Below are positions 1,503-55,850 of a DNA stretch of 64,000 nucleotides, one piece after another. A model generated the notes under the pieces. That model did not search any database and was not told where the DNA came from. It saw nothing but the letters and a program-made list of their open reading frames with translations. Origin of the DNA: a bacterium (GTDB lineage: Bacteria; Patescibacteriota; Patescibacteriia; UBA9934; GWF2-40-263); assembly GCA_021789915.1 (NCBI GenBank), contig JAJYIV010000002.1:613-64612 (forward strand), in the 5' to 3' direction. Position numbers and translations under genes: made by a program. Numbering within the stretch: position 1 is the first letter of the stretch; each line of letters begins with the position of its first letter.

Positions 1503-1512
1503 GGCGCGAACC

Positions 1513-1568
1513 CCTCCGCCTGCCAAAAAGGAAGCCAGCAGGCATCCTCCCCTTGGCAGGGGAGGTTC
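1513..1568. repeat. Palindromic repeat element, copy E1, intergenic, reverse orientation relative to E3/E13
   Basis: ctccgcctgccaaaaaggaagccagcaggcatcctccccttggcaggggagg is near reverse-complement of the element at 15582-15645 and 63802-63870. Confidence 0.6.
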
Positions 1569-9797: not shown

Positions 9798-10885
9798 CGT
9801 CCGGCCAGGGCGCGCACGCGTTCCGCCAGGCGTTCCGCGGCGCCTCCCGGGAACAGCGCCCCGATCCGTTCGGACAGGCGGCGCTGTTTTTCTTTGTCTC
9901 CGACAAGCGCCGCGACCTGCGCGACGAGCGCGGTCCCGCCGCGCGCCTGCTCCACGGCCACCGCCGCCCCGCGGCGCAGGACGGCGCGCGCGTTTTCCTC
10001 CTGCGGCGAGCGCGGCAGCGGCACGAGCACGCACGGCTTGCGCAGCGCCGAGAGCTCCGCAAGCGTGCCCATGCCGGCGCGCGCGACCACGACGTCGGCA
10101 GCCGCCAAGGCGTCGGCCAAATCGCGGCCAAGGAGCAGCTCCACGGCGGCGTAGCCGGGCCCGGCCGCGCGCAGGCCCTCGGTGACTTTCCCGCGGCCCG
10201 TCACGTGGATGACGTCGGCGACGGCGCGCATGCGCTCCATCCCCGCCTCAAACGCCCGGTTGATCCACGCCGATCCGCCCCCGCCGCCCAGCACGAGCGC
10301 CACCGGACGCGCGCCGGAAAAGCCGTAGCGCGCGCGGGCGGCCGACGCATCGCCGCGCAGGATCGACGGCCGCACGGGCTGGCCGACGACGAGCGTTTTG
10401 TCCTTCGGGAACGCCGCGGCCGTCTCGGGCCACGCGACGGTGATGAGCGACGCGGCGCCCGCACACAGGCGGTTGGACAAGACCGGCCGCACGTCGGGCT
10501 GATGGATCCACGACGGAATCTTGAACCGGCGAGCCAGCAGGACGAACGGCACGCCGGTGAAGCCGCCGGCCGAGGCGACGACGTCCGGCCGTTCGCGGCG
10601 GAGCAGGCGCCACGCGGCGAACAGCGCCGCGGCGGCTTTGAACGGGAACACCAGCCACTCGGCGGACGCGTAGCGCGTCAGGCGCGCCACGGGCACGGCG
10701 TGGAACGGAATGCCCGCCTGCTCCACCAGCGCGCGCTCCGGCCCGCGCGCCGTTCCCGCCCACGCGAACGACGCGTCCGGATCGGACGCGCCATGCCTGT
10801 CGGCAGGCAGGCGCAACGCTTCGGCGACGGCGAGCAGCGGCGTGACGGGACCAAGCGTTCCTCCGCCGGCAAAGAGGATTTTCAT
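9794..10885 (-). CDS. murG: Undecaprenyldiphospho-muramoylpentapeptide beta-N-acetylglucosaminyltransferase
   Basis: MKILFAGGGTLGPVTPLLA N-terminus typical of MurG. GT28 C-terminal domain. Start trimmed to MKILF (about 10885). The track ORF extends 19 aa further upstream. Confidence 0.85.
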   Translation of the reverse strand: MKILFAGGGTLGPVTPLLAVAEALRLPADRHGASDPDASFAWAGTARGPERALVEQAGIPFHAVPVARLTRYASAEWLVFPFKAAAALFAAWRLLRRERPDVVASAGGFTGVPFVLLARRFKIPSWIHQPDVRPVLSNRLCAGAASLITVAWPETAAAFPKDKTLVVGQPVRPSILRGDASAARARYGFSGARPVALVLGGGGGSAWINRAFEAGMERMRAVADVIHVTGRGKVTEGLRAAGPGYAAVELLLGRDLADALAAADVVVARAGMGTLAELSALRKPCVLVPLPRSPQEENARAVLRRGAAVAVEQARGGTALVAQVAALVGDKEKQRRLSERIGALFPGGAAERLAERVRALAGR

Positions 10886-10911
10886 AGCGGTAAGCCAACA
10901 GCCGTCAGCCG

Positions 10912-11280
10912 TCAGGGATTGGCCTTCGGCCTCGAAGAACACAAGACGTTCAACATACGCAAAACTTCATGCAAGAGACAGTCGGCTCGATCGTAATCGA
11001 GTGAACCGGTTCTCGGAAGCCGCCGAGCGATCGAGAGTTGCGTCTGAAGCTCGGCCGCCGAACCGTAAGCGATCGAGAGGAACCTGGCAAACTCATTGTC
11101 GTAGCCGCGCATCTTCCCTTCCGCGATATTCGATGGAATGGAAACCGCTGCTCGTCTCATTTGGCTTGTTAAACCGAATCGTTCGTCCGTCGGGAAAGAG
11201 TCGGTCAAGAGGTAAATCTCAAGGGAAAGATCCATGGCTTTTTGCCAGACAATGAGATCTTCGTATGGTCCTGTCGACAT
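10912..11280 (-). CDS. Four-helix-bundle protein (23S rRNA intervening-sequence protein family, TIGR02436-like)
   Basis: 122 aa: MSTGPYEDLIVWQKAMDL...IAEGKMRGYDNEF...AYGSAAELQTQL matches the conserved pattern of this family. ATG verified at 11278-11280. Lies in the C-terminal part of a long artefactual ORF. Confidence 0.8.
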   Translation of the reverse strand: MSTGPYEDLIVWQKAMDLSLEIYLLTDSFPTDERFGLTSQMRRAAVSIPSNIAEGKMRGYDNEFARFLSIAYGSAAELQTQLSIARRLPRTGSLDYDRADCLLHEVLRMLNVLCSSRPKANP

Positions 11281-14482: not shown

Positions 14483-14761
14483 TTACTTCGTTTCGACGCG
14501 GGCGAAGGTGCGCGTCTGCAGCTTGCCGGCGAAATTCGGCATGCGCTTCTTGGCGAACTTCACGATGCCGTCGACGGCCGCATACAGCGTGTCGTCGCCG
14601 CCTTGGCGCATGTTGGCGCCGGGATGGATCTTGGTGCCGCGCTGGCGCACCACGATCTGGCCGGCCTTGGTGACCTGTCCGTCGGCAATCTTCACGCCCA
14701 GGCGCTGACCATGGGAATCGCGGCCAAGGGTTGTGGAACCTGTCGCTTTTTTGTGAGCCAT
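14483..14761 (-). CDS. rpmA: 50S ribosomal protein L27
   Basis: [24 protein letters not shown]... canonical L27. ATG verified at 14759-14761. Confidence 0.9.
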
Positions 14762-14885
14762 AAAGGAAAGCTTTTAGCCATTAGCCTTTAGCCATGAGCC
14801 GGAAAAACCGACAGACTGGCAAGCGAATGCGGGCAGTGTAGAGGAAGGACGGCCGGACGTCAAGGCACAACCTTAGAGCACAACC

Positions 14886-16211
14886 TTAGAGCCTGTTCAT
14901 CCGGCAGACGAAGCTCTTCAAATACGCCGCCTCGGGGAAATACACGGACAACGGATGATCCGGGCTCTGACGCACGACCTCGAGCACCTGCAGGTCGACG
15001 CCCGCCTGCACCGACGCGCGGCGCAGCAGGAAGACCAAGTCCTCCTCCGGCAGGAAATGCGAACAGCTGGACGTGATGAAGATGCCGCCGTCCTTCACGA
15101 GCTTGAGCGCGGCGCGGTTCAGGAAATGATAGGCCTTCTTCCCTTCCTCGGCGTCCTTCATCGACTTGATGAGCGCCGGCGGATCCATAACGACGACGTC
15201 GAAAGCGCCGGCAACCCCCTCAGACTCCCCCTTGGCAAGGGGGAGATGGTGCGGGTTGGCGAGCCACTGGAAGACGTCCGCTTTCTCCGTCGCGCAGACC
15301 TCGTCGGACAAGCCGGCCGCCGCCGCCTGCGCGCGCAGCGATGCCAGCGCTTCCTCGGATCCGTCGACGTTCAGGACGGATTTCGCCCCGCCGGCGAAAG
15401 CGGCGAAGGACGTGGCACCGGTGTATGAAAAGAGATTCAGAACCGTCTTCCCTTGCGCGAGCGCGGCGACCCGGTCGCGCAGGTCCTTCTGGTCGAGGAA
15501 GAATCCCGTCTTTTGTCCGTGAAGAGGATCGGCGACGCAACGCCGGCCGTGCTCGAGAAATTCGACTTGACCCAATGCGCGTCCTCCCCTTTCCAAGGGG
15601 AGGCTGCCTGCTGGCCGCTTTTCAGCAGGCGGAGGTGTTGCCGGCGTGTGAATTCTGACGACCGCCTCCAGGTTCTCCTCGCGCCGGCTCGGCATGTCGC
15701 TGCGCTCGACGATCGCGCGCGGCTTGAACGTCTCTTCCAGCGCGGCGACGACGTCGTCACGCAGCGCGTCGAGACCGGCGGTTGCGATCTGGCATACGAG
15801 CACGTCGCCGTAGCGGTCGACGACCAAGCCCGGAATCCCGTCGGACTCGCCGAACACGCAGCGGTAGCCGGTCGTGAACTTCTCCCCCTTTTCAAGGGGG
15901 AGACTCTGCTCCAGAGGGGGTCGAGGGCCGTATCCCATCAAAACCCGTTTCTGGTGCGCATCCGCGATCTTGGCCGCCAGCCAGGCGCGGTCGATGACGG
16001 CCTCTTTGAACGCAAACACGCGCACGGCGATGGACGAGCTGGCGGAGTACGTCCCCGTGCCGATGATGCGCCCCTGGCGGTCCGCGACGTGCACGAGGGC
16101 GCCATGCTCGGGTTTCTTCTGACCGTCGGCCAGCGCGCGCGAAAAAATCCACGGATGGCGGAAGCCGACATTGGCCTCCTTCCCTTCTTTGAGCTTCAGG
16201 ACGGGGTACAT
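14886..16211 (-). CDS. rlmI: 23S rRNA (cytosine-C5) methyltransferase RlmI-like (PUA + class I SAM methyltransferase), carrying three in-frame repeat insertions
   Basis: MYPVLKLKEGKEANVGFRHPWIF N-terminus (ATG 16209-16211). SAM motif LNLFSYTGATS and VVMDPP. The upstream 265 codons of the track ORF are Arg-rich artefact. Confidence 0.75.
   Translation of the reverse strand: MYPVLKLKEGKEANVGFRHPWIFSRALADGQKKPEHGALVHVADRQGRIIGTGTYSASSSIAVRVFAFKEAVIDRAWLAAKIADAHQKRVLMGYGPRPPLEQSLPLEKGEKFTTGYRCVFGESDGIPGLVVDRYGDVLVCQIATAGLDALRDDVVAALEETFKPRAIVERSDMPSRREENLEAVVRIHTPATPPPAEKRPAGSLPLERGGRALGQVEFLEHGRRCVADPLHGQKTGFFLDQKDLRDRVAALAQGKTVLNLFSYTGATSFAAFAGGAKSVLNVDGSEEALASLRAQAAAAGLSDEVCATEKADVFQWLANPHHLPLAKGESEGVAGAFDVVVMDPPALIKSMKDAEEGKKAYHFLNRAALKLVKDGGIFITSSCSHFLPEEDLVFLLRRASVQAGVDLQVLEVVRQSPDHPLSVYFPEAAYLKSFVCRMNRL
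15215..15246. repeat. Palindromic element E2, in frame inside rlmI-like (encodes LPLAKGESEG)
   Basis: ccccctcagactcccccttggcaagggggag. Confidence 0.55.
15582..15645. repeat. Palindromic element E3, in frame inside rlmI-like (encodes PPAEKRPAGSLPLERGGR)
   Basis: tcctcccctttccaaggggaggctgcctgctggccgcttttcagcaggcggaggtgttgccggcg. Nearly identical to 63802-63870. Confidence 0.65.
15881..15928. repeat. Palindromic element E4, in frame inside rlmI-like (encodes PPLEQSLPLEKGEK)
   Basis: ctccccctttcaagggggagactctgctccagagggggtcgagg. Confidence 0.55.
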
Positions 16212-51349: not shown

Positions 51350-53398
51350 TCACCGCACGCGCGTCCGGAACAGCTCGTCCGGCCACTTGGCGAAATACTT
51401 GAGGAAGCTGATCGAGTGCGCGCGGGCCATCCGGTTGACGAGCAGCGTGCGCAGCAGGCTGCCCTGGCGCACCGATCCCTTGCCGTAGGCATGCTGCAGC
51501 GCCGCATCGGCCACATAGTACACCGGCCGGTGCATCGCCCACGAGCGGCGGCACAGATCCACGTCCTCGAAGTACATCCAGAAGCGCTCGTCGAAGCCGC
51601 CCAGCGCGCGCCAGTGCTCCATCGGCAGGAACAGCGCGGAGCCCTGCGCCCAATCCACCATGCGCGTTTCGCCTGGCGGCGTGTCGCGCATCAGGAAACG
51701 ATGGAGGTAGCGGCGGCCGAAGGCCGTGCCGCCGAGCGTCGTGCGCTGGACGAGCGGCAGCGGCCACGACGGGAAGCGGCGCACGGTTTCCTGCGCCTGT
51801 CCGTCGGGATAGACGATCTTGGGCGCGGCGATGCCGGCGCGCGGATGCGCGCGCATGAACGCGACGAGCTTGGCGAAGAGCCGATCGTCGACGAGTTCCG
51901 TATCCGGGTTCAGCACGAAGAGGAACTCGGCGTCGAGCTCGGCGGCGCCGCGGTTCACGGAGCTGCCGTAGCCGGCGTCCCAGTTGCGCTGGACGACCAC
52001 GCCGTCGGGAATCGCGTCCCACAGCACGGCCGCGGCATCGTACGCCGTCGACGCGTTGTCCACGACGACGACGCCGACGCGCAGGCCGGACGCCTTGCGC
52101 GCGCGATCGAGCGAACGCAGACACGCGGCGCTCAAATCGTCGTGCGAGACGATGACGACGGCGATGTCGAGGTAAGTAGCTGGCGGCTGGGGGCTGGCGG
52201 CTGGGGGAGAAAACGGGAGCGGGGCCTGCGCGCGCGCCGCGTCCGCGGGCGACGGCACGGCGCGAACCGCGCCGAACCGCGCGGCGTACGCGCGCCGCTT
52301 CGTGATCAGCTCATGCCGATGCTCCCACGTTTCCCGCCACGCCTCGGTGCACACGCGCGGCCGCATGACGAGCCAATATGCCGCCTTCGCCGCCTCATAC
52401 GGAAGCACGGCCCATGCGCGCGCCGGCGCCGAACGGAACTCCCCCTGGCTCCCTCTTGAAAAGAGGGGGAAGTGCATCGCCAGCGTCCAAAGATGGTTGC
52501 GGTACGAGTGGAACACCGGCCGCCAGGTTTGCGCGGTGCGGCCGATTCCCCCCCTGCCTGCCTCGCATACCCCCCGCCTGCCAAAATGCGGCCAGCAGGC
52601 AGCCCCCCTTGGCAGGGGGGCAATCCTGGCCGTGCCGAAGCTGCGGCGATGGTACGCGACGGCGTCGGACACGACGCCGGAGGCGAAGCCCGCGCGGCGC
52701 AATCTCCACGCAAGCTCGACGTCTTCCTTGTACGAGACGAACGACGGGTCAAACAAATTCCCGTCCAACGACGCCGCCTCTACCGCCGCACGGCGATACA
52801 TCGGCAGGCAGCCCGACACCCCGAACGCCTCGTGCACGCCCTCATGCAGCTGCGCCGTCGAAACACGCTCCCCTGCTCCGATGTCGCGCACGGCGCCCGT
52901 TGCCGACATCGCCAAGCCGAAACTGTCGATCACGTCCGTGCGCCCGCCGGACCCCTCTGCCCAGCTGAGCTGGGCCGTCCCCCCTTGGCAGGGGGGGACG
53001 ACACACGCCGCCCGATCGAAATCCCATCGATACACGCGCCCGGCGACGGACCCGAGCCGCGCGTCCGCGTCCAGCGCGGCGACGAGCCGCTCGAGATACG
53101 CCGGTTCCAGGATCGCATCGTCGTTGTGCAGCATCACGTACGCCGCCTGATGCTTGGAGAACAGCAGGTTATGCGCGCCGGCAAAGTCGACGTTGCGCGG
53201 CCCGACGTCCACGTACACGGCGCGGTCGCCGAGTTCCCGCGCGAACGCGCGCACCGCCTCGGCCTGCACGGGATCCGACGCATTGTCCGTCACGTACAGC
53301 GTCCAATCGCGGAACGTCTGCGCGCGCAGGGACGCCAAAATATGCGGCAGGTACCGCGCGCCGTCGTAGCAGGAAAGTTGGATGGCGAGTTTGGACAT
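51350..53398 (-). CDS. Two-domain glycosyltransferase family 2 protein (682 aa) carrying in-frame palindromic elements and a tandem-repeat linker
   Basis: Two GT-A domains (MSKLAIQLSCYDG... and IAVVIVSHDD...). Linker PPAASPQPPA is encoded by the tandem GCTGGCGGCTGGGG. Elements E5-E7 lie inside the CDS in frame. Confidence 0.75.
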   Translation of the reverse strand: MSKLAIQLSCYDGARYLPHILASLRAQTFRDWTLYVTDNASDPVQAEAVRAFARELGDRAVYVDVGPRNVDFAGAHNLLFSKHQAAYVMLHNDDAILEPAYLERLVAALDADARLGSVAGRVYRWDFDRAACVVPPCQGGTAQLSWAEGSGGRTDVIDSFGLAMSATGAVRDIGAGERVSTAQLHEGVHEAFGVSGCLPMYRRAAVEAASLDGNLFDPSFVSYKEDVELAWRLRRAGFASGVVSDAVAYHRRSFGTARIAPLPRGAACWPHFGRRGVCEAGRGGIGRTAQTWRPVFHSYRNHLWTLAMHFPLFSRGSQGEFRSAPARAWAVLPYEAAKAAYWLVMRPRVCTEAWRETWEHRHELITKRRAYAARFGAVRAVPSPADAARAQAPLPFSPPAASPQPPATYLDIAVVIVSHDDLSAACLRSLDRARKASGLRVGVVVVDNASTAYDAAAVLWDAIPDGVVVQRNWDAGYGSSVNRGAAELDAEFLFVLNPDTELVDDRLFAKLVAFMRAHPRAGIAAPKIVYPDGQAQETVRRFPSWPLPLVQRTTLGGTAFGRRYLHRFLMRDTPPGETRMVDWAQGSALFLPMEHWRALGGFDERFWMYFEDVDLCRRSWAMHRPVYYVADAALQHAYGKGSVRQGSLLRTLLVNRMARAHSISFLKYFAKWPDELFRTRVR
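52547..52622. repeat. Palindromic element E6 (double core), in frame inside the GT2 gene
   Basis: cccccctgcctgcctcgcataccccccgcctgccaaaatgcggccagcaggcagccccccttggcaggggggc. Confidence 0.6.
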
Positions 53399-53409
53399 AG
53401 ATCGCTGGC

Positions 53410-53540
53410 AACCCCTCCGCCTGCCGATGGTCGGCCAGCAGGCAGCCTCCCCTTGGGGGGGCGCGTTTTTCCGCGTCCCCTCTTTTCCAAGAGCCTGTCC
53501 TGAGCGAGCGGAGCGAGTCGAAGGAAGGGGTCAAGGGGTG
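53410..53540. repeat. Composite palindromic element E8 (intergenic), includes the GCCTGTCCTGAGCGAGCGGAGCGAGTCGAAGGAAGGGG module
   Basis: cccctccgcctgccgatggtcggccagcaggcagcctccccttggggggg ... gcctgtcctgagcgagcggagcgagtcgaaggaagggg. The second module recurs at 60412-60445 and 62672-62705. Confidence 0.55.
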
Positions 53541-55319: not shown

Positions 55320-55757
55320 TCATTCCAGCGGCCAGGTTTCCAGCGGCAGGTTCACGCTTTCGTCCGGCTCCCAGGCGACGGTCGCCCCGTTGCAGACGAT
55401 CGCGGCGCCTTCGCCGGCGCAGCGCCACGCATAGGCCACGCCCGGCGGGATCGTCAGCAGGAAGGACTTCCCTTCCGCCGGCGCCAGCTCGTACGTCTCC
55501 GCCGCGCCCCTGGCCGGCGAACCGTCGCGCTCGTCGCGGATCCAGAAGCGCATCGCGCCGGAGACGACCGCCATGTTGGACGTGGAACGGGCGTGCCGTT
55601 TCCATCCTTTCGTCACGCCCGGGTTCACGGTCGAAAAATACACCTCGCCGAAGCGCGTGAACGGCGCGCGCCCCTCGCGCAGGAAATGCATCACGCTTCC
55701 CCGCTCGTCGCGGACGATCTTGAGGGGCGTCAGCAGGACGCCGGGAATGGAGGACAT
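55320..55757 (-). CDS. Cupin-fold sugar-nucleotide epimerase-like protein (RmlC/WxcM family)
   Basis: 145 aa. VMHFLRE...GEVYFSTVNPGVTKGWKRH...IPPGVAYAW cupin pattern. Confidence 0.5.
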   Translation of the reverse strand: MSSIPGVLLTPLKIVRDERGSVMHFLREGRAPFTRFGEVYFSTVNPGVTKGWKRHARSTSNMAVVSGAMRFWIRDERDGSPARGAAETYELAPAEGKSFLLTIPPGVAYAWRCAGEGAAIVCNGATVAWEPDESVNLPLETWPLE

Positions 55758-55769
55758 AGAAGTTCGCCG

Positions 55770-55850
55770 TTAGCCGTTAGCCGTTAGGAAAAAGGACGCG
55801 CAGCCCCCCAAAGCCAAAGGCTAATGGCTAATGGCTTTTTCTACGACATC
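55770..55850. repeat. Inverted pair of TTAGCC-type heptamer tandem repeats at a gene junction
   Basis: gccgttagccgttagccgttagg ... ccaaaggctaatggctaatggc. The two arms can pair with G-U wobbles. Confidence 0.55.

What the first reader, a model, noticed from the sequence alone, without database searches (positions are those of the whole stretch)
14886..16211. rRNA methyltransferase gene with three independent in-frame element insertions
The rlmI-like CDS carries three different copies of the palindromic family (15215-15246, 15582-15645, 15881-15928). Each is a multiple of 3 nt, and each lies between conserved blocks (PUA / linker / MTase). An essential-type housekeeping gene tolerating three insertions argues that the elements target, or are selected to land in, surface loops.
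Basis: partly seen in the sequence, partly recalled or inferred. Interest (0 to 1): 0.6.

Follow-up and report, generated by a model that had tools for sequence, protein, structure and literature searches.

The report
In-frame hairpin repeats inside rlmI gene
An intact rRNA methyltransferase gene of a likely candidate-phyla-radiation bacterium carries three short GC-rich hairpin repeats, built like the 'triplex motif' (BoxC) repeats that sit between genes in E. coli, and each is read through as an extra surface loop, much as Rickettsia palindromic elements are.

Summary
The 441-aa RlmI-like gene (14886-16211, minus strand) carries three copies of one repeat family. They add 13, 20 and 13 codons that the closest syntenic ortholog lacks. 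The gene looks functional. All 65 family-invariant residues are kept, including DPP and the SSCS cysteine. It deviates at 2 of 139 highly conserved columns, the family median. The model (pLDDT 89.9) matches RlmI crystal structures (TM 0.89), and the inserts are low-confidence coil in three lengthened loops.

The element is more than a palindrome. It has a 9-bp C-run/G-run hairpin, an optional second hairpin, and a G-rich tail that mirrors the hairpin's 3' arm. That is the architecture of BoxC/PIT 'intrastrand triplex motifs', which are always intergenic in E. coli MG1655. Here about 15 copies lie in 64 kb, 12 of them inside genes, and two further genes carry two or three in-frame inserts each.

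Best reading: non-autonomous selfish repeats, filtered by selection to in-frame, stop-free, loop positions, as with Rickettsia palindromic elements. Active targeting of loops is not shown. One insertion recurs at the same nucleotide position in a distant lineage, which remains unexplained. Verdict: new variant of a known kind, moderate interest.

The parts
14886..16211 (-). RlmI-like PUA + class I SAM-dependent rRNA m5C methyltransferase CDS, 441 aa, intact
   Evidence: Translation. Pfam PUA_3 1.2e-15 and Methyltrans_SAM 9.4e-14. phmmer to E. coli RlmI 3c0k gives 5.8e-63 over the full length. Foldseek TM 0.89 to 3c0k. The rlmI-rpmA-nifU synteny is shared with orthologs.
15879..15925 (+). Insert A. 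H1 hairpin 15882-15902, small second hairpin CTCTGctcCAGAG 15904-15916, mirror tail GAGGGGGT 15914-21. Translated on the minus strand as ..PPLEQSLPLEKGEKF.. (residues about 96-110).
   Evidence: 13 codons (net gap 15876-15914) are absent from L001 and from all but 2 of 120 homologs at this loop. Modelled as coil with block-mean pLDDT 73-82, between helix 75-91 and strand 115-120. The DNA fold shows both hairpins, -14.6 kcal/mol, z -2.6.
15580..15646 (+). Insert B. 67-nt two-hairpin unit: H1 15583-15603, H2 CTGCCTGCTGGCCGCTTTTCAGCAGGCGG 15604-15632, tail GGAGGTGTT 15631-15639, then GCCGGCG. Translated as ..TPATPPPAEKRPAGSLPLERGG.. (residues about 189-208).
   Evidence: 20 codons are absent from all aligned homologs. 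It is 94% identical over 67 nt to the copy at 63800-63866, with unrelated flanks (D6). Modelled as coil with block-mean pLDDT 54-66, between strands 184-188 and 216-220. DNA fold -21.3 kcal/mol, z -3.3.
15206..15246 (-). Insert C. Canonical triplex-motif unit on the coding strand: CTCCCCCTTGCCAAGGGGGAG-TCT-GAGGGGGTT-GCCGGCG. Translated as ..HHLPLAKGESEGVAGA.. (residues about 319-335).
   Evidence: 13 codons are extra against L001. The tail mirrors the 3' arm 9/9, counting T.A-T triplets, with loops of 3 and 3 nt (sequence). Modelled as coil with block-mean pLDDT 57-76, between helix 313-318 and the strand 337-342 that leads into DPP. The same element sits at the same nucleotide position in L127/L129 and L005.
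1505..1564 (-). Intergenic two-hairpin copy, starting 3 nt after the stop codon of ORF 3-1502
   Evidence: D9; DNA fold z -3.75.
52433..53008 (-). Three copies inside the double-GT2 glycosyltransferase gene 51350-53398 (-): 52961-53008, 52541-52624, and 52433-52468 (27 nt net, as two gaps of 5 and 4 codons)
   Evidence: In-frame inserts of 48, 84 and 27 nt are absent from all 10 aligned orthologs (alignment A3; codon alignment against L128).
53405..53535 (.). Two intergenic copies just upstream of that gene's start: 53405-53464, and 53470-53535. The second has the other repeat family nested in its H1 loop.
   Evidence: D9; sequence.
59238..59290 (+). Copy inside the hypothetical ORF 58621-59460 (-)
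   Evidence: The ORF has GC3 of 0.84 and no Pfam hit. Its status as a gene is not confirmed by homology.
60398..60875 (+). Two copies (60398-60482 with a nested second-family repeat, and 60809-60875) inside the ArnT/PMT_2-like membrane glycosyltransferase gene 59523-61409 (-)
   Evidence: Inserts of about 36 and about 40 aa are absent from the closest homolog P0223 (alignment A4; sequences).
62611..63866 (+). Three copies (62611-62653, 62653-62735, 63800-63866) inside a long membrane-protein-like ORF, 62026 to beyond 63999 (+)
   Evidence: The ORF has no Pfam hit and was not checked by homology.

Best explanation
The gene is a working RlmI-family rRNA methyltransferase that has been colonised three times by members of one family of short, non-autonomous, GC-rich repeats.

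Each unit has three parts: a 9-bp hairpin with a C-run arm and a G-run arm; an optional, variable second GC hairpin; and a G-rich tail that is the mirror image of the hairpin's 3' arm. This is the architecture of the BoxC/PIT 'intrastrand triplex motif' repeats.

The units are copied to new places by a mechanism that leaves no target-site duplication and whose enzyme is not in this window (inferred). In a gene-dense genome most landing sites are inside genes. Purifying selection keeps only insertions that are a multiple of 3 nt, have no stop codon, and fall in loops that tolerate extra residues. C-runs and G-runs translate to Pro/Leu and Gly/Lys/Arg/Glu, which are coil-forming peptides such as LPLAKGE, so the protein folds around them (inferred).

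Shown: the insertions, their in-frame state, their absence from orthologs, the loop positions in the models, the intact motifs, the shared architecture, and the dispersal of near-identical copies.

Inferred: mobility, filtering by selection, and retained enzyme activity.
For: Insertions:
- 13, 20 and 13 extra codons against the closest syntenic ortholog. They are absent from nearly all of 120 homologs.
- Deleting the 46 residues raises every NCBIfam score by 25-36 bits.

Gene integrity:
- All 65 invariant columns are kept.
- Deviations occur at 2 of 139 highly conserved columns, equal to the family median.

Structure:
- AlphaFold pLDDT is 89.9, with the inserts as low-confidence coil.
- The insert-free ortholog P0002 has the same order of helices and strands, with loops of 10, 6 and 4 residues where the window protein has 23, 27 and 18.
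- Foldseek TM 0.89-0.90 to RlmI, PH1915 and RlmO.

A DNA-level family, not a peptide module:
- About 15 copies in 64 kb, in both orientations and in different frames.
- The 15580 and 63800 copies are 94% identical over 67 nt, with unrelated flanks.
- Two other conserved genes carry 3 and 2 in-frame inserts that their orthologs lack.

Architecture:
- The tail type follows the hairpin type in 36/56, 21/28, 16/22 and 11/30 metagenome copies, against 0-2 for the wrong types.
- This matches the class II triplex motif of Holder et al. 2015 (PMC4666352).

Ease of in-frame survival: 88% of element frames are stop-free.
Against: - No mobilising enzyme was found: no transposase-like Pfam hit in about 46 ORFs. 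No target-site duplication was seen at copies with well-defined ends.
- No empty-site polymorphism was seen, so mobility is inferred only from dispersed near-identical copies.
- Pure random insertion plus selection does not easily explain an identical junction in rlmI of a lineage whose protein is only 58% identical. The element there is 90% identical in DNA, against 62% for the gene.
- Activity of the protein was not tested. The NCBIfam RlmI equivalog cut-off is not reached (233 vs 712 bits), so the rRNA target is uncertain.
- The rest of the genome was not available, so the intragenic share (12 of 15) rests on one contig. Two of the host ORFs were not confirmed as genes.
Confidence: 0.78

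Rival explanations
1. Site-directed insertion (homing). The elements recognise particular DNA sequences or structures, for example a G-rich tract resembling their own tail. They therefore land repeatedly at the same places, which happen to encode loops.
For: - The same subfamily sits at the same nucleotide position (19 nt upstream of GAT CCN of the DPP motif) and in the same orientation in L127/L129 and L005. In the NJ tree these are far from the window's clade.
- The element is 90% identical where the gene is 62% identical.
- L127's copy is closer to the window's copy than to the copy in its own sister L005, which suggests turnover at one site.
- The closest empty site, L001, reads GAGGGGGTA exactly where the tail lies.
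- Nested insertions of a second family always sit in the H1 loop.
Against: - There is only one recurrent site. The tail plus GCCGGCG is also carried by copies in unrelated contexts (15631-15646, 63851-63866), so it belongs to the element, not the target.
- An EG dipeptide is common at that loop, so GAGGGG may be chance.
- L006 has a decayed PLTKGE at the same site inside the window's own clade, which fits an old insertion better.
- No common flank motif is seen at the other copies.
Confidence: 0.2
2. The site C insert, and perhaps others, is an old insertion kept by selection or by gene conversion for a DNA- or RNA-level role. Candidates are a hairpin/triplex that pauses replication or transcription, or that modulates translation of the methyltransferase. 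On this view it is not junk.
For: - The element ties for the highest DNA identity of any 39-nt stretch of the gene between two distant lineages.
- Hairpin-tail covariation across many unrelated contigs implies selection on structure.
- The BoxC motif forms a stable triplex as single-stranded DNA in vitro, and such structures can stall polymerases (PMC4666352).
Against: - Most orthologs lack the insert and are otherwise conserved.
- The elements occur in both orientations relative to transcription within one gene.
- The E. coli motifs showed no promoter or terminator activity and no triplex in vivo.
- L006's copy has lost the palindrome.
- Conservation can come from gene conversion among copies.
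Confidence: 0.12
3. The gene is a decaying pseudogene, or the insertions are assembly or chimera artefacts of a metagenome bin.
For: - The contig is from a metagenome assembly.
- Palindromes can cause assembly errors.
- The exact protein could not be traced to a record by the contig look-up.
Against: - The frame is intact through all three inserts, with no excess of changes at conserved columns and all motifs present.
- Inserts of the same kind occur in independent assemblies from other samples (L005, L127, L129, L130).
- The same contig shows in-frame inserts in two more genes.
Confidence: 0.03

Closest known systems
Rickettsia palindromic elements (RPE; Ogata et al. 2000, 2002, as summarised in PMC10969869 and PMC1779305)
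   Same: - Dispersed palindromic repeats found in both intergenic DNA and conserved protein-coding genes.
- Inserted in frame and translated, in a way compatible with the protein fold.
- Some inserts are shared by whole lineages, such as the RPE-7-like insert of PheT. This parallels site C here.
- They occur in small, reduced genomes.
   Different: - RPEs are 100-150 bp, against 27-84 nt net here.
- RPEs are Rickettsiales-specific sequence families, and each encodes a conserved peptide. Here the frame, and so the peptide, varies between genes.
- The hairpin-plus-mirror-tail architecture is not an RPE feature as far as I know.
- The host is a high-GC, probably Patescibacteria, organism.
[quoted passage not shown] 2015, PMC4666352; Hoyne et al. 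2000 as cited there)
   Same: - C-rich stem, short loop, complementary G-rich stem, 3-nt loop, then a second G-rich stem that mirrors the first. This is the purine motif with G.G-C, A.A-T and T.A-T triplets.
- Both single and back-to-back 'palindromic' arrangements occur.
- Dispersed, highly similar copies.
- No associated transposase was found.
- Copies are deleted or degraded between relatives.
   Different: - TM_ECO is 'always located intergenically' in E. coli MG1655. Here 12 of about 15 copies are inside genes.
- The stem sequence differs (CCCTCNCCC against C[CT][CT]CCCCTT).
- Many copies here have a whole extra hairpin (13-29 nt) between the hairpin and the tail, beyond the 1-6 nt loop of the ITxF definition.
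- Triplex formation was not tested for these sequences.
REP/REPIN elements mobilised by RAYT transposases (PMC3733652, PMC3116915)
   Same: Short GC-rich imperfect palindromes, sometimes paired in inverted orientation, non-autonomous, with no target-site duplication.
   Different: - REPs are extragenic, carry a GTAG or CGTC tag, and come with a RAYT gene.
- Here a CGTC precedes only 3 of about 15 copies, most copies are intragenic, and no Y1-transposase domain was found in the window.
GC-rich double-hairpin elements and GC clusters of fungal mitochondria (my own knowledge; not checked in the paper library)
   Same: Short mobile GC-rich hairpin pairs that also occur in frame inside protein-coding genes.
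   Different: They are organellar, sit in AT-rich genomes, and are unrelated in sequence. No mirror tail has been reported, to my knowledge.

Membership tests
RlmI-like PUA + class I SAM-dependent rRNA m5C methyltransferases | N-terminal PUA domain and C-terminal SAM-dependent methyltransferase domain | tested here: met
   Pfam PUA_3 1.2e-15 (residues 5-68) and Methyltrans_SAM 9.4e-14.
RlmI-like PUA + class I SAM-dependent rRNA m5C methyltransferases | Full-length sequence and fold similarity to solved RlmI-type enzymes | tested here: met
   phmmer against 3c0k gives 5.8e-63 over residues 5-438. Foldseek target-normalised TM is 0.89 (3c0k), 0.90 (2as0) and 0.90 (4dmg RlmO).
RlmI-like PUA + class I SAM-dependent rRNA m5C methyltransferases | Catalytic and SAM-binding motifs intact (FSYTG, DPP, SSCS cysteine) | tested here: met
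   D343, P344, P345, S381, S382, C383 and S384 are invariant columns. F261, G265 and D283 are kept. Deviations occur at 2 of 139 conserved columns.
RlmI-like PUA + class I SAM-dependent rRNA m5C methyltransferases | Equivalog-level assignment to RlmI (23S C1962) rather than a sister specificity | tested here: not met
   NCBIfam RlmI scores 233 bits against a cut-off of 712. Rlm_2499C5 at 224 bits and a second C1962 model at 218 bits are nearly as good. The rRNA target is therefore unassigned.
Intrastrand triplex motif repeats (BoxC/PIT/TM, class II purine motif) | C-rich stem, loop of 3-6 nt, complementary G-rich stem | tested here: met
   All three copies have 9-bp stems with 3-nt loops.
Intrastrand triplex motif repeats (BoxC/PIT/TM, class II purine motif) | Second G-rich stem that mirrors the first (G.G-C, A.A-T or T.A-T triplets) | tested here: met
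   Site C matches 9/9 (GAGGGGGTT against AAGGGGGAG). Site A matches 8/9, site B 8/9, and its twin at 63800 matches 9/9 (sequence). Across metagenome copies the tail type tracks the hairpin type.
Intrastrand triplex motif repeats (BoxC/PIT/TM, class II purine motif) | Second loop short (1-6 nt in ITxF; 3 nt in TM_ECO) | tested here: inconclusive
   Met at site C (3 nt). Not met at site A (11 nt between arm and tail) or site B (27 nt). In both, the spacer is itself a hairpin.
Intrastrand triplex motif repeats (BoxC/PIT/TM, class II purine motif) | Forms a triplex as single-stranded DNA (CD/NMR) | not testable with these tools
   The folding tools model Watson-Crick pairs only. This was shown for TM_ECO in vitro but not in vivo (PMC4666352).
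Intrastrand triplex motif repeats (BoxC/PIT/TM, class II purine motif) | Intergenic location (TM_ECO in E. coli MG1655) | tested here: not met
   12 of about 15 copies are inside ORFs, and 8 of these are confirmed as inserts against orthologs. Elsewhere the family is mostly outside long ORFs: 35% of hits against 71% of random positions.
Rickettsia palindromic elements (RPE) | Palindromic repeat inserted in frame in conserved protein genes and compatible with the fold | tested here: met
Rickettsia palindromic elements (RPE) | 100-150 bp units of the RPE-1 to RPE-10 sequence families, each encoding a conserved peptide, in Rickettsiales | tested here: not met
   Units here are 27-84 nt and frames differ between genes. 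The host's best-named homologs are Patescibacteria/Uhrbacteria. Sequence comparison with RPE models was not run.
REP/REPIN with RAYT | GTAG or CGTC tag at one end, extragenic location, cognate RAYT gene | tested here: not met
   A CGTC precedes 3 of about 15 copies. Most copies are intragenic. No transposase-like Pfam hit was found in about 46 ORFs. The rest of the genome was not available.
MITE | Terminal inverted repeats plus target-site duplication, derived from an IS | tested here: inconclusive
   Units are palindromic, but no consistent direct repeat flanks the two pairs of copies with well-defined ends (15580/63800 and 60809/52562). No parent IS was seen.

The most novel reading that the evidence does not exclude
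These hairpin-plus-mirror-tail units may be a distinct class of site-seeking mobile DNA. On this reading their potential triplex-forming structure is under selection, and they repeatedly insert or overwrite at the same positions of conserved genes across divergent candidate-phyla-radiation lineages. That would make them a general engine of loop gain in the proteins of these reduced genomes. The identical rlmI junction in two lineages, with 90% element identity against 62% gene identity, would be its footprint.
Probability: 0.15. Interest if true: 0.8.

Novelty: new variant of a known kind. Interest (0 to 1): 0.52.

Why it matters
Two things that have been described separately meet here. One is the BoxC/'intrastrand triplex motif' repeats, so far treated as intergenic curiosities linked to genome instability. 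The other is the Rickettsia-style colonisation of protein-coding genes by palindromic repeats.

If the pattern holds genome-wide, three things follow:
- A second, unrelated bacterial group with small genomes tolerates translated selfish DNA in conserved genes.
- There is a simple source of Pro/Gly-rich loop insertions that inflate and diversify proteins in candidate-phyla-radiation genomes. This matters for annotation, alignment and structure prediction of metagenomic proteins.
- The intragenic copies are a natural experiment on which loops of a conserved enzyme accept 10-30 extra residues.

The recurrence at one exact site would, if it reflects targeting, point to an undescribed insertion mechanism.

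Tried and rejected
- **Rfam.** Nothing at the elements at gathering threshold (only 4 tRNAs in the window). With permissive settings, only a weak chance hit to a mycobacterial sRNA model (27 vs 70 bits).
- **Genome collection scan.** A search of 185,579 species genomes for the H1/H2 junction gave one hit. On inspection it has no hairpin and is a chance match. The source genome and this subfamily are therefore not in that collection.
- **Contig look-up.** Taxonomy rests on the names of homologs only.
- **Plasmid megablast** of the gene: no match.
- **Target-site duplications.** None consistent. A GCGAGG repeat flanks the 60809 copy but not its twin at 52562.
- **Transposase or RAYT in the window.** None found.
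- **G-quadruplex reading of G-arm plus tail.** Rejected as the driver. Only two long G-runs are present, and the 9-bp GC hairpin would dominate. It also does not predict the position-specific A/T covariation that the mirror rule does.
- **Tail as host target rather than part of the element.** Rejected for the two-hairpin subfamily, because the tail plus GCCGGCG travels with the unit into unrelated contexts.
- **Intron-, intein- or bypass-like removal.** Not favoured. Every intragenic copy checked keeps the frame and lacks stops, which would be unnecessary if the segments were removed. The segments are also far too short for inteins.
- **Three copies in one gene as a significant cluster.** Not significant by itself (P about 0.2).
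Full report
**1. What is at the locus**

The gene runs from the ATG at 16211 to the TAA at 14886-14888 on the minus strand and encodes 441 aa. It has a PUA_3 domain (residues 5-68, E 1.2e-15) and a SAM-dependent methyltransferase domain (E 9.4e-14). It aligns end to end with E. coli RlmI/YccW, PDB 3c0k (E 5.8e-63).

Downstream on the same strand lie rpmA (L27) and a NifU-like gene. Orthologous contigs L001, L002 and L006 show the same rlmI-rpmA-nifU order, so these are true orthologs. The best-named homologs of this and two other genes come from Patescibacteria/Uhrbacteria. The window is 65.6% GC. The organism itself could not be named.

**2. The observation**

Three 21-nt palindromes sit at 15225-15245, 15583-15603 and 15882-15902. 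They match CTCCCCCTTNNCAAGGGGGAG or its one-base-shifted variant. The pattern gives 5 matches in the window against 0.03 expected, and the 15-nt core gives 9 against 0.12. On the coding strand each is translated as LPL[AE][KR]G[EG].

The nearest homologs (62-67% BLASTP identity, 390-403 aa) lack all three segments. A codon alignment with the closest syntenic ortholog gives net extra lengths of 39, 60 and 39 nt. Removing the 46 residues raises all NCBIfam scores by 25-36 bits.

**3. Is the gene still good?**

All 65 columns invariant in a 60-sequence alignment are kept, including DPP (343-345) and SSCS (381-384). The protein deviates at 2 of 139 columns that are at least 90% conserved in the others, which is the median for the family.

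AlphaFold gives mean pLDDT 89.9. Three of the four blocks below 70 cover the inserts; the fourth, 231-240, is a conserved loop (PLHGQKTGFF). The inserts are coil apart from a 4-residue helix (99-102) in insert A. The insert-free ortholog P0002 (pLDDT 93.0) has the same order of helices and strands. Its loops are 10, 6 and 4 residues long where the window protein has 23, 27 and 18. The model superposes on RlmI, PH1915 and RlmO crystal structures with target-normalised TM of 0.89-0.90.

- Insert A follows the PUA domain and its helix.
- Insert B is in the linker before the methyltransferase domain.
- Insert C is inside that domain, in the loop before the strand leading to DPP.

The gene is not a pseudogene. 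Its exact rRNA target is open, because no NCBIfam equivalog cut-off is reached.

**4. Anatomy of the element**

Putting all copies in one orientation shows a modular unit:

- H1: C[CT][CT]CCCC-TT-NNN-AA-GGGG[AG][AG]G.
- An optional second GC hairpin, H2, of 0-30 nt.
- A G-rich tail followed by T.

The tail is the reverse, not the complement, of H1's 3' arm.

- Site C is CTCCCCCTTGCCAAGGGGGAG-TCT-GAGGGGGTT. That makes nine possible G.G-C, A.A-T and T.A-T triplets, with 3-nt loops.
- Sites A and B have H2 between H1 and the tail.
- Sites A and B are canonical on the + strand. Site C is canonical on the coding (minus) strand. The gene therefore holds both orientations.

In those copies the tail type follows the hairpin type:

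| H1 5' arm | Tail | Copies with the matching tail |
|---|---|---|
| CCTCCCC | GG[AT]GGGGT | 36 of 56 |
| CTCCCCC | GAGGGGGT | 21 of 28 |
| CCCCCCC | GGGGGGGT | 16 of 22 |
| CTTCCCC | G[AT][AT]GGGGT | 11 of 30 |

Only 0-2 copies in each row carry a tail of a wrong type.

This is the published 'intrastrand triplex motif' (BoxC, PIT, TM_ECO): C-stem, loop, G-stem, 3-nt loop, mirrored G-stem. That motif forms a triplex as single-stranded DNA in vitro. It has not been seen as a triplex in vivo and has no promoter or terminator activity. It is associated with local instability and is 'always located intergenically' in E. coli MG1655 (PMC4666352). Rfam has nothing at these sites. The hairpin-plus-tail motif also occurs in 31 viral contigs.

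**5. A genome-wide habit**

The window holds about 15 copies:

- 3 in rlmI.
- 3 in a double-GT2 glycosyltransferase gene.
- 2 in an ArnT-like membrane glycosyltransferase gene.
- 1 in a hypothetical ORF.
- 3 in a membrane-protein-like ORF.
- 3 intergenic.

For both glycosyltransferases, alignment with orthologs shows that the copies are lineage-specific in-frame inserts. They measure 48, 84 and 27 nt in one gene, and about 36 and about 40 aa in the other. Frames and orientations differ between genes (PPCQGG, APLPRG, FPLFSRG, LPLAKGE), so the unit is a DNA element and not a protein module.

The copies at 15580-15646 and 63800-63866 are 94% identical over exactly 67 nt, with unrelated flanks. 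The 60809 and 52562 copies behave the same way. Discrete units have therefore been copied around.

A second repeat (CCTGTCCTGAGCGAAGTCGAAGG) is nested in the H1 loop three times. In the metagenome sample only 35% of H1 hits lie in long ORFs, against 71% of random positions. The intragenic load seen here is therefore unusual for the family.

No transposase-like domain was found in about 46 ORFs, and no target-site duplication was seen.

**6. Mechanism**

The best-supported account is selfish, non-autonomous repeats plus a selection filter.

- The elements are stop-free in 88% of frames, against 77% for random 60-mers of this genome. About three in ten random insertions would therefore keep the frame.
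- C- and G-runs encode Pro/Leu and Gly/Lys/Arg/Glu, which are coil-forming residues.
- The same loops vary in length in other orthologs. Several orthologs carry other GC-rich inserts there, such as GSGQGTF, GRSGQAAREQ and KPGQASP.
- Three copies in one 1.3-kb gene is not beyond chance at the local density (P about 0.2). Two such clusters in the window are (P about 0.01).

**7. What does not fit neatly**

At site C the same subfamily (no H2, tail GAGGGGGTT, then GCCGGCGC) occurs at the same nucleotide position and in the same orientation in L127/L129. That lineage's protein is 58% identical and falls in a distant clade of the NJ tree.

- Over the element the two genes are 90% identical in DNA, against 62% overall. 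This ties for the highest identity of any 39-nt stretch, level with one conserved protein motif.
- L127's close relative L005 has a more divergent version with two H1 hairpins.
- L006, in the window's own clade, has a non-palindromic PLTKGE at the same place.
- The empty site of L001 reads GAGGGGGTA exactly where the tail lies.

Homing, an old insertion with losses and gene conversion, and horizontal transfer all remain possible. The Rickettsia PheT insert shared by all species is a precedent for the 'old insertion' reading.

**8. Comparison and verdict**

In behaviour this is the Rickettsia palindromic element phenomenon. In architecture the units belong with the BoxC/triplex-motif repeats. 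They are not members of the RPE sequence families, nor of REP/RAYT or classical MITEs (see the membership table).

I found no paper in the library describing such repeats inside genes of candidate-phyla-radiation bacteria. That is not proof that none exists.

I rate it a new variant of a known kind, of moderate interest.

Noticed in passing
window 10883-10923, 14759-14799, 21862-21902, 26856-26896, 55755-55795, 59455-59495: Two or three tandem heptamers, GGCTAAN on the gene strand, lie 8-12 nt upstream of the ATG of six minus-strand genes, including rpmA, CTP synthase and a MacB-like permease. This could be a shared leader or promoter motif (family D2).
   Followed up: no
window 14865-14892: A perfect 13-nt tandem duplication (GCACAACCTTAGA, 2.2 copies) spans the rlmI stop codon.
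   Followed up: no
window 60414-60437, 62670-62693, 53487-53520: A second repeat family, CCTGTCCTGAGCGAAGTCGAAGG, is nested each time inside the loop of an H1 hairpin. By frame it reads PVLSEVEG, STSLRTG or FDFAQDR. Related 'SGQA'-type peptides appear as inserts in other RlmI orthologs (P0091, P0079, P0084).
   Followed up: partly
window 19235-19333: A perfect 27-nt tandem repeat, 3.7 copies, lies inside a long ORF.
   Followed up: no
window 22626-22706 and 25181-25261: An 81-nt repeat, 96% identical, includes a small hairpin (GTGAGCCCGACGCTCAC) and lies near the ends of two ORFs (D10).
   Followed up: no
L160 (IMG/VR contig IMGVR_UViG_3300032160_001195), 4073-11350: A viral contig carries nine copies of the poly-C version of the hairpin-plus-mirror-tail unit (CCCCCCCTTCGCAAGGGGGGG-CA-GGGGGGGT), several at about 200-nt spacing. 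In all, 31 viral contigs hold the motif, against well under one expected by my rough estimate.
   Followed up: partly
L129 8218-8260: The genome that shares the site C insert also has a hairpin-plus-tail unit inside a 1068-aa ORF. Intragenic copies are therefore not confined to the window's organism.
   Followed up: partly
L035 13654-13890; L078 32-290; L069/L126: Some metagenome contigs carry the H1 hairpin in regular tandem arrays with periods of 72, 119 and about 62 nt, a different arrangement from the dispersed copies.
   Followed up: no
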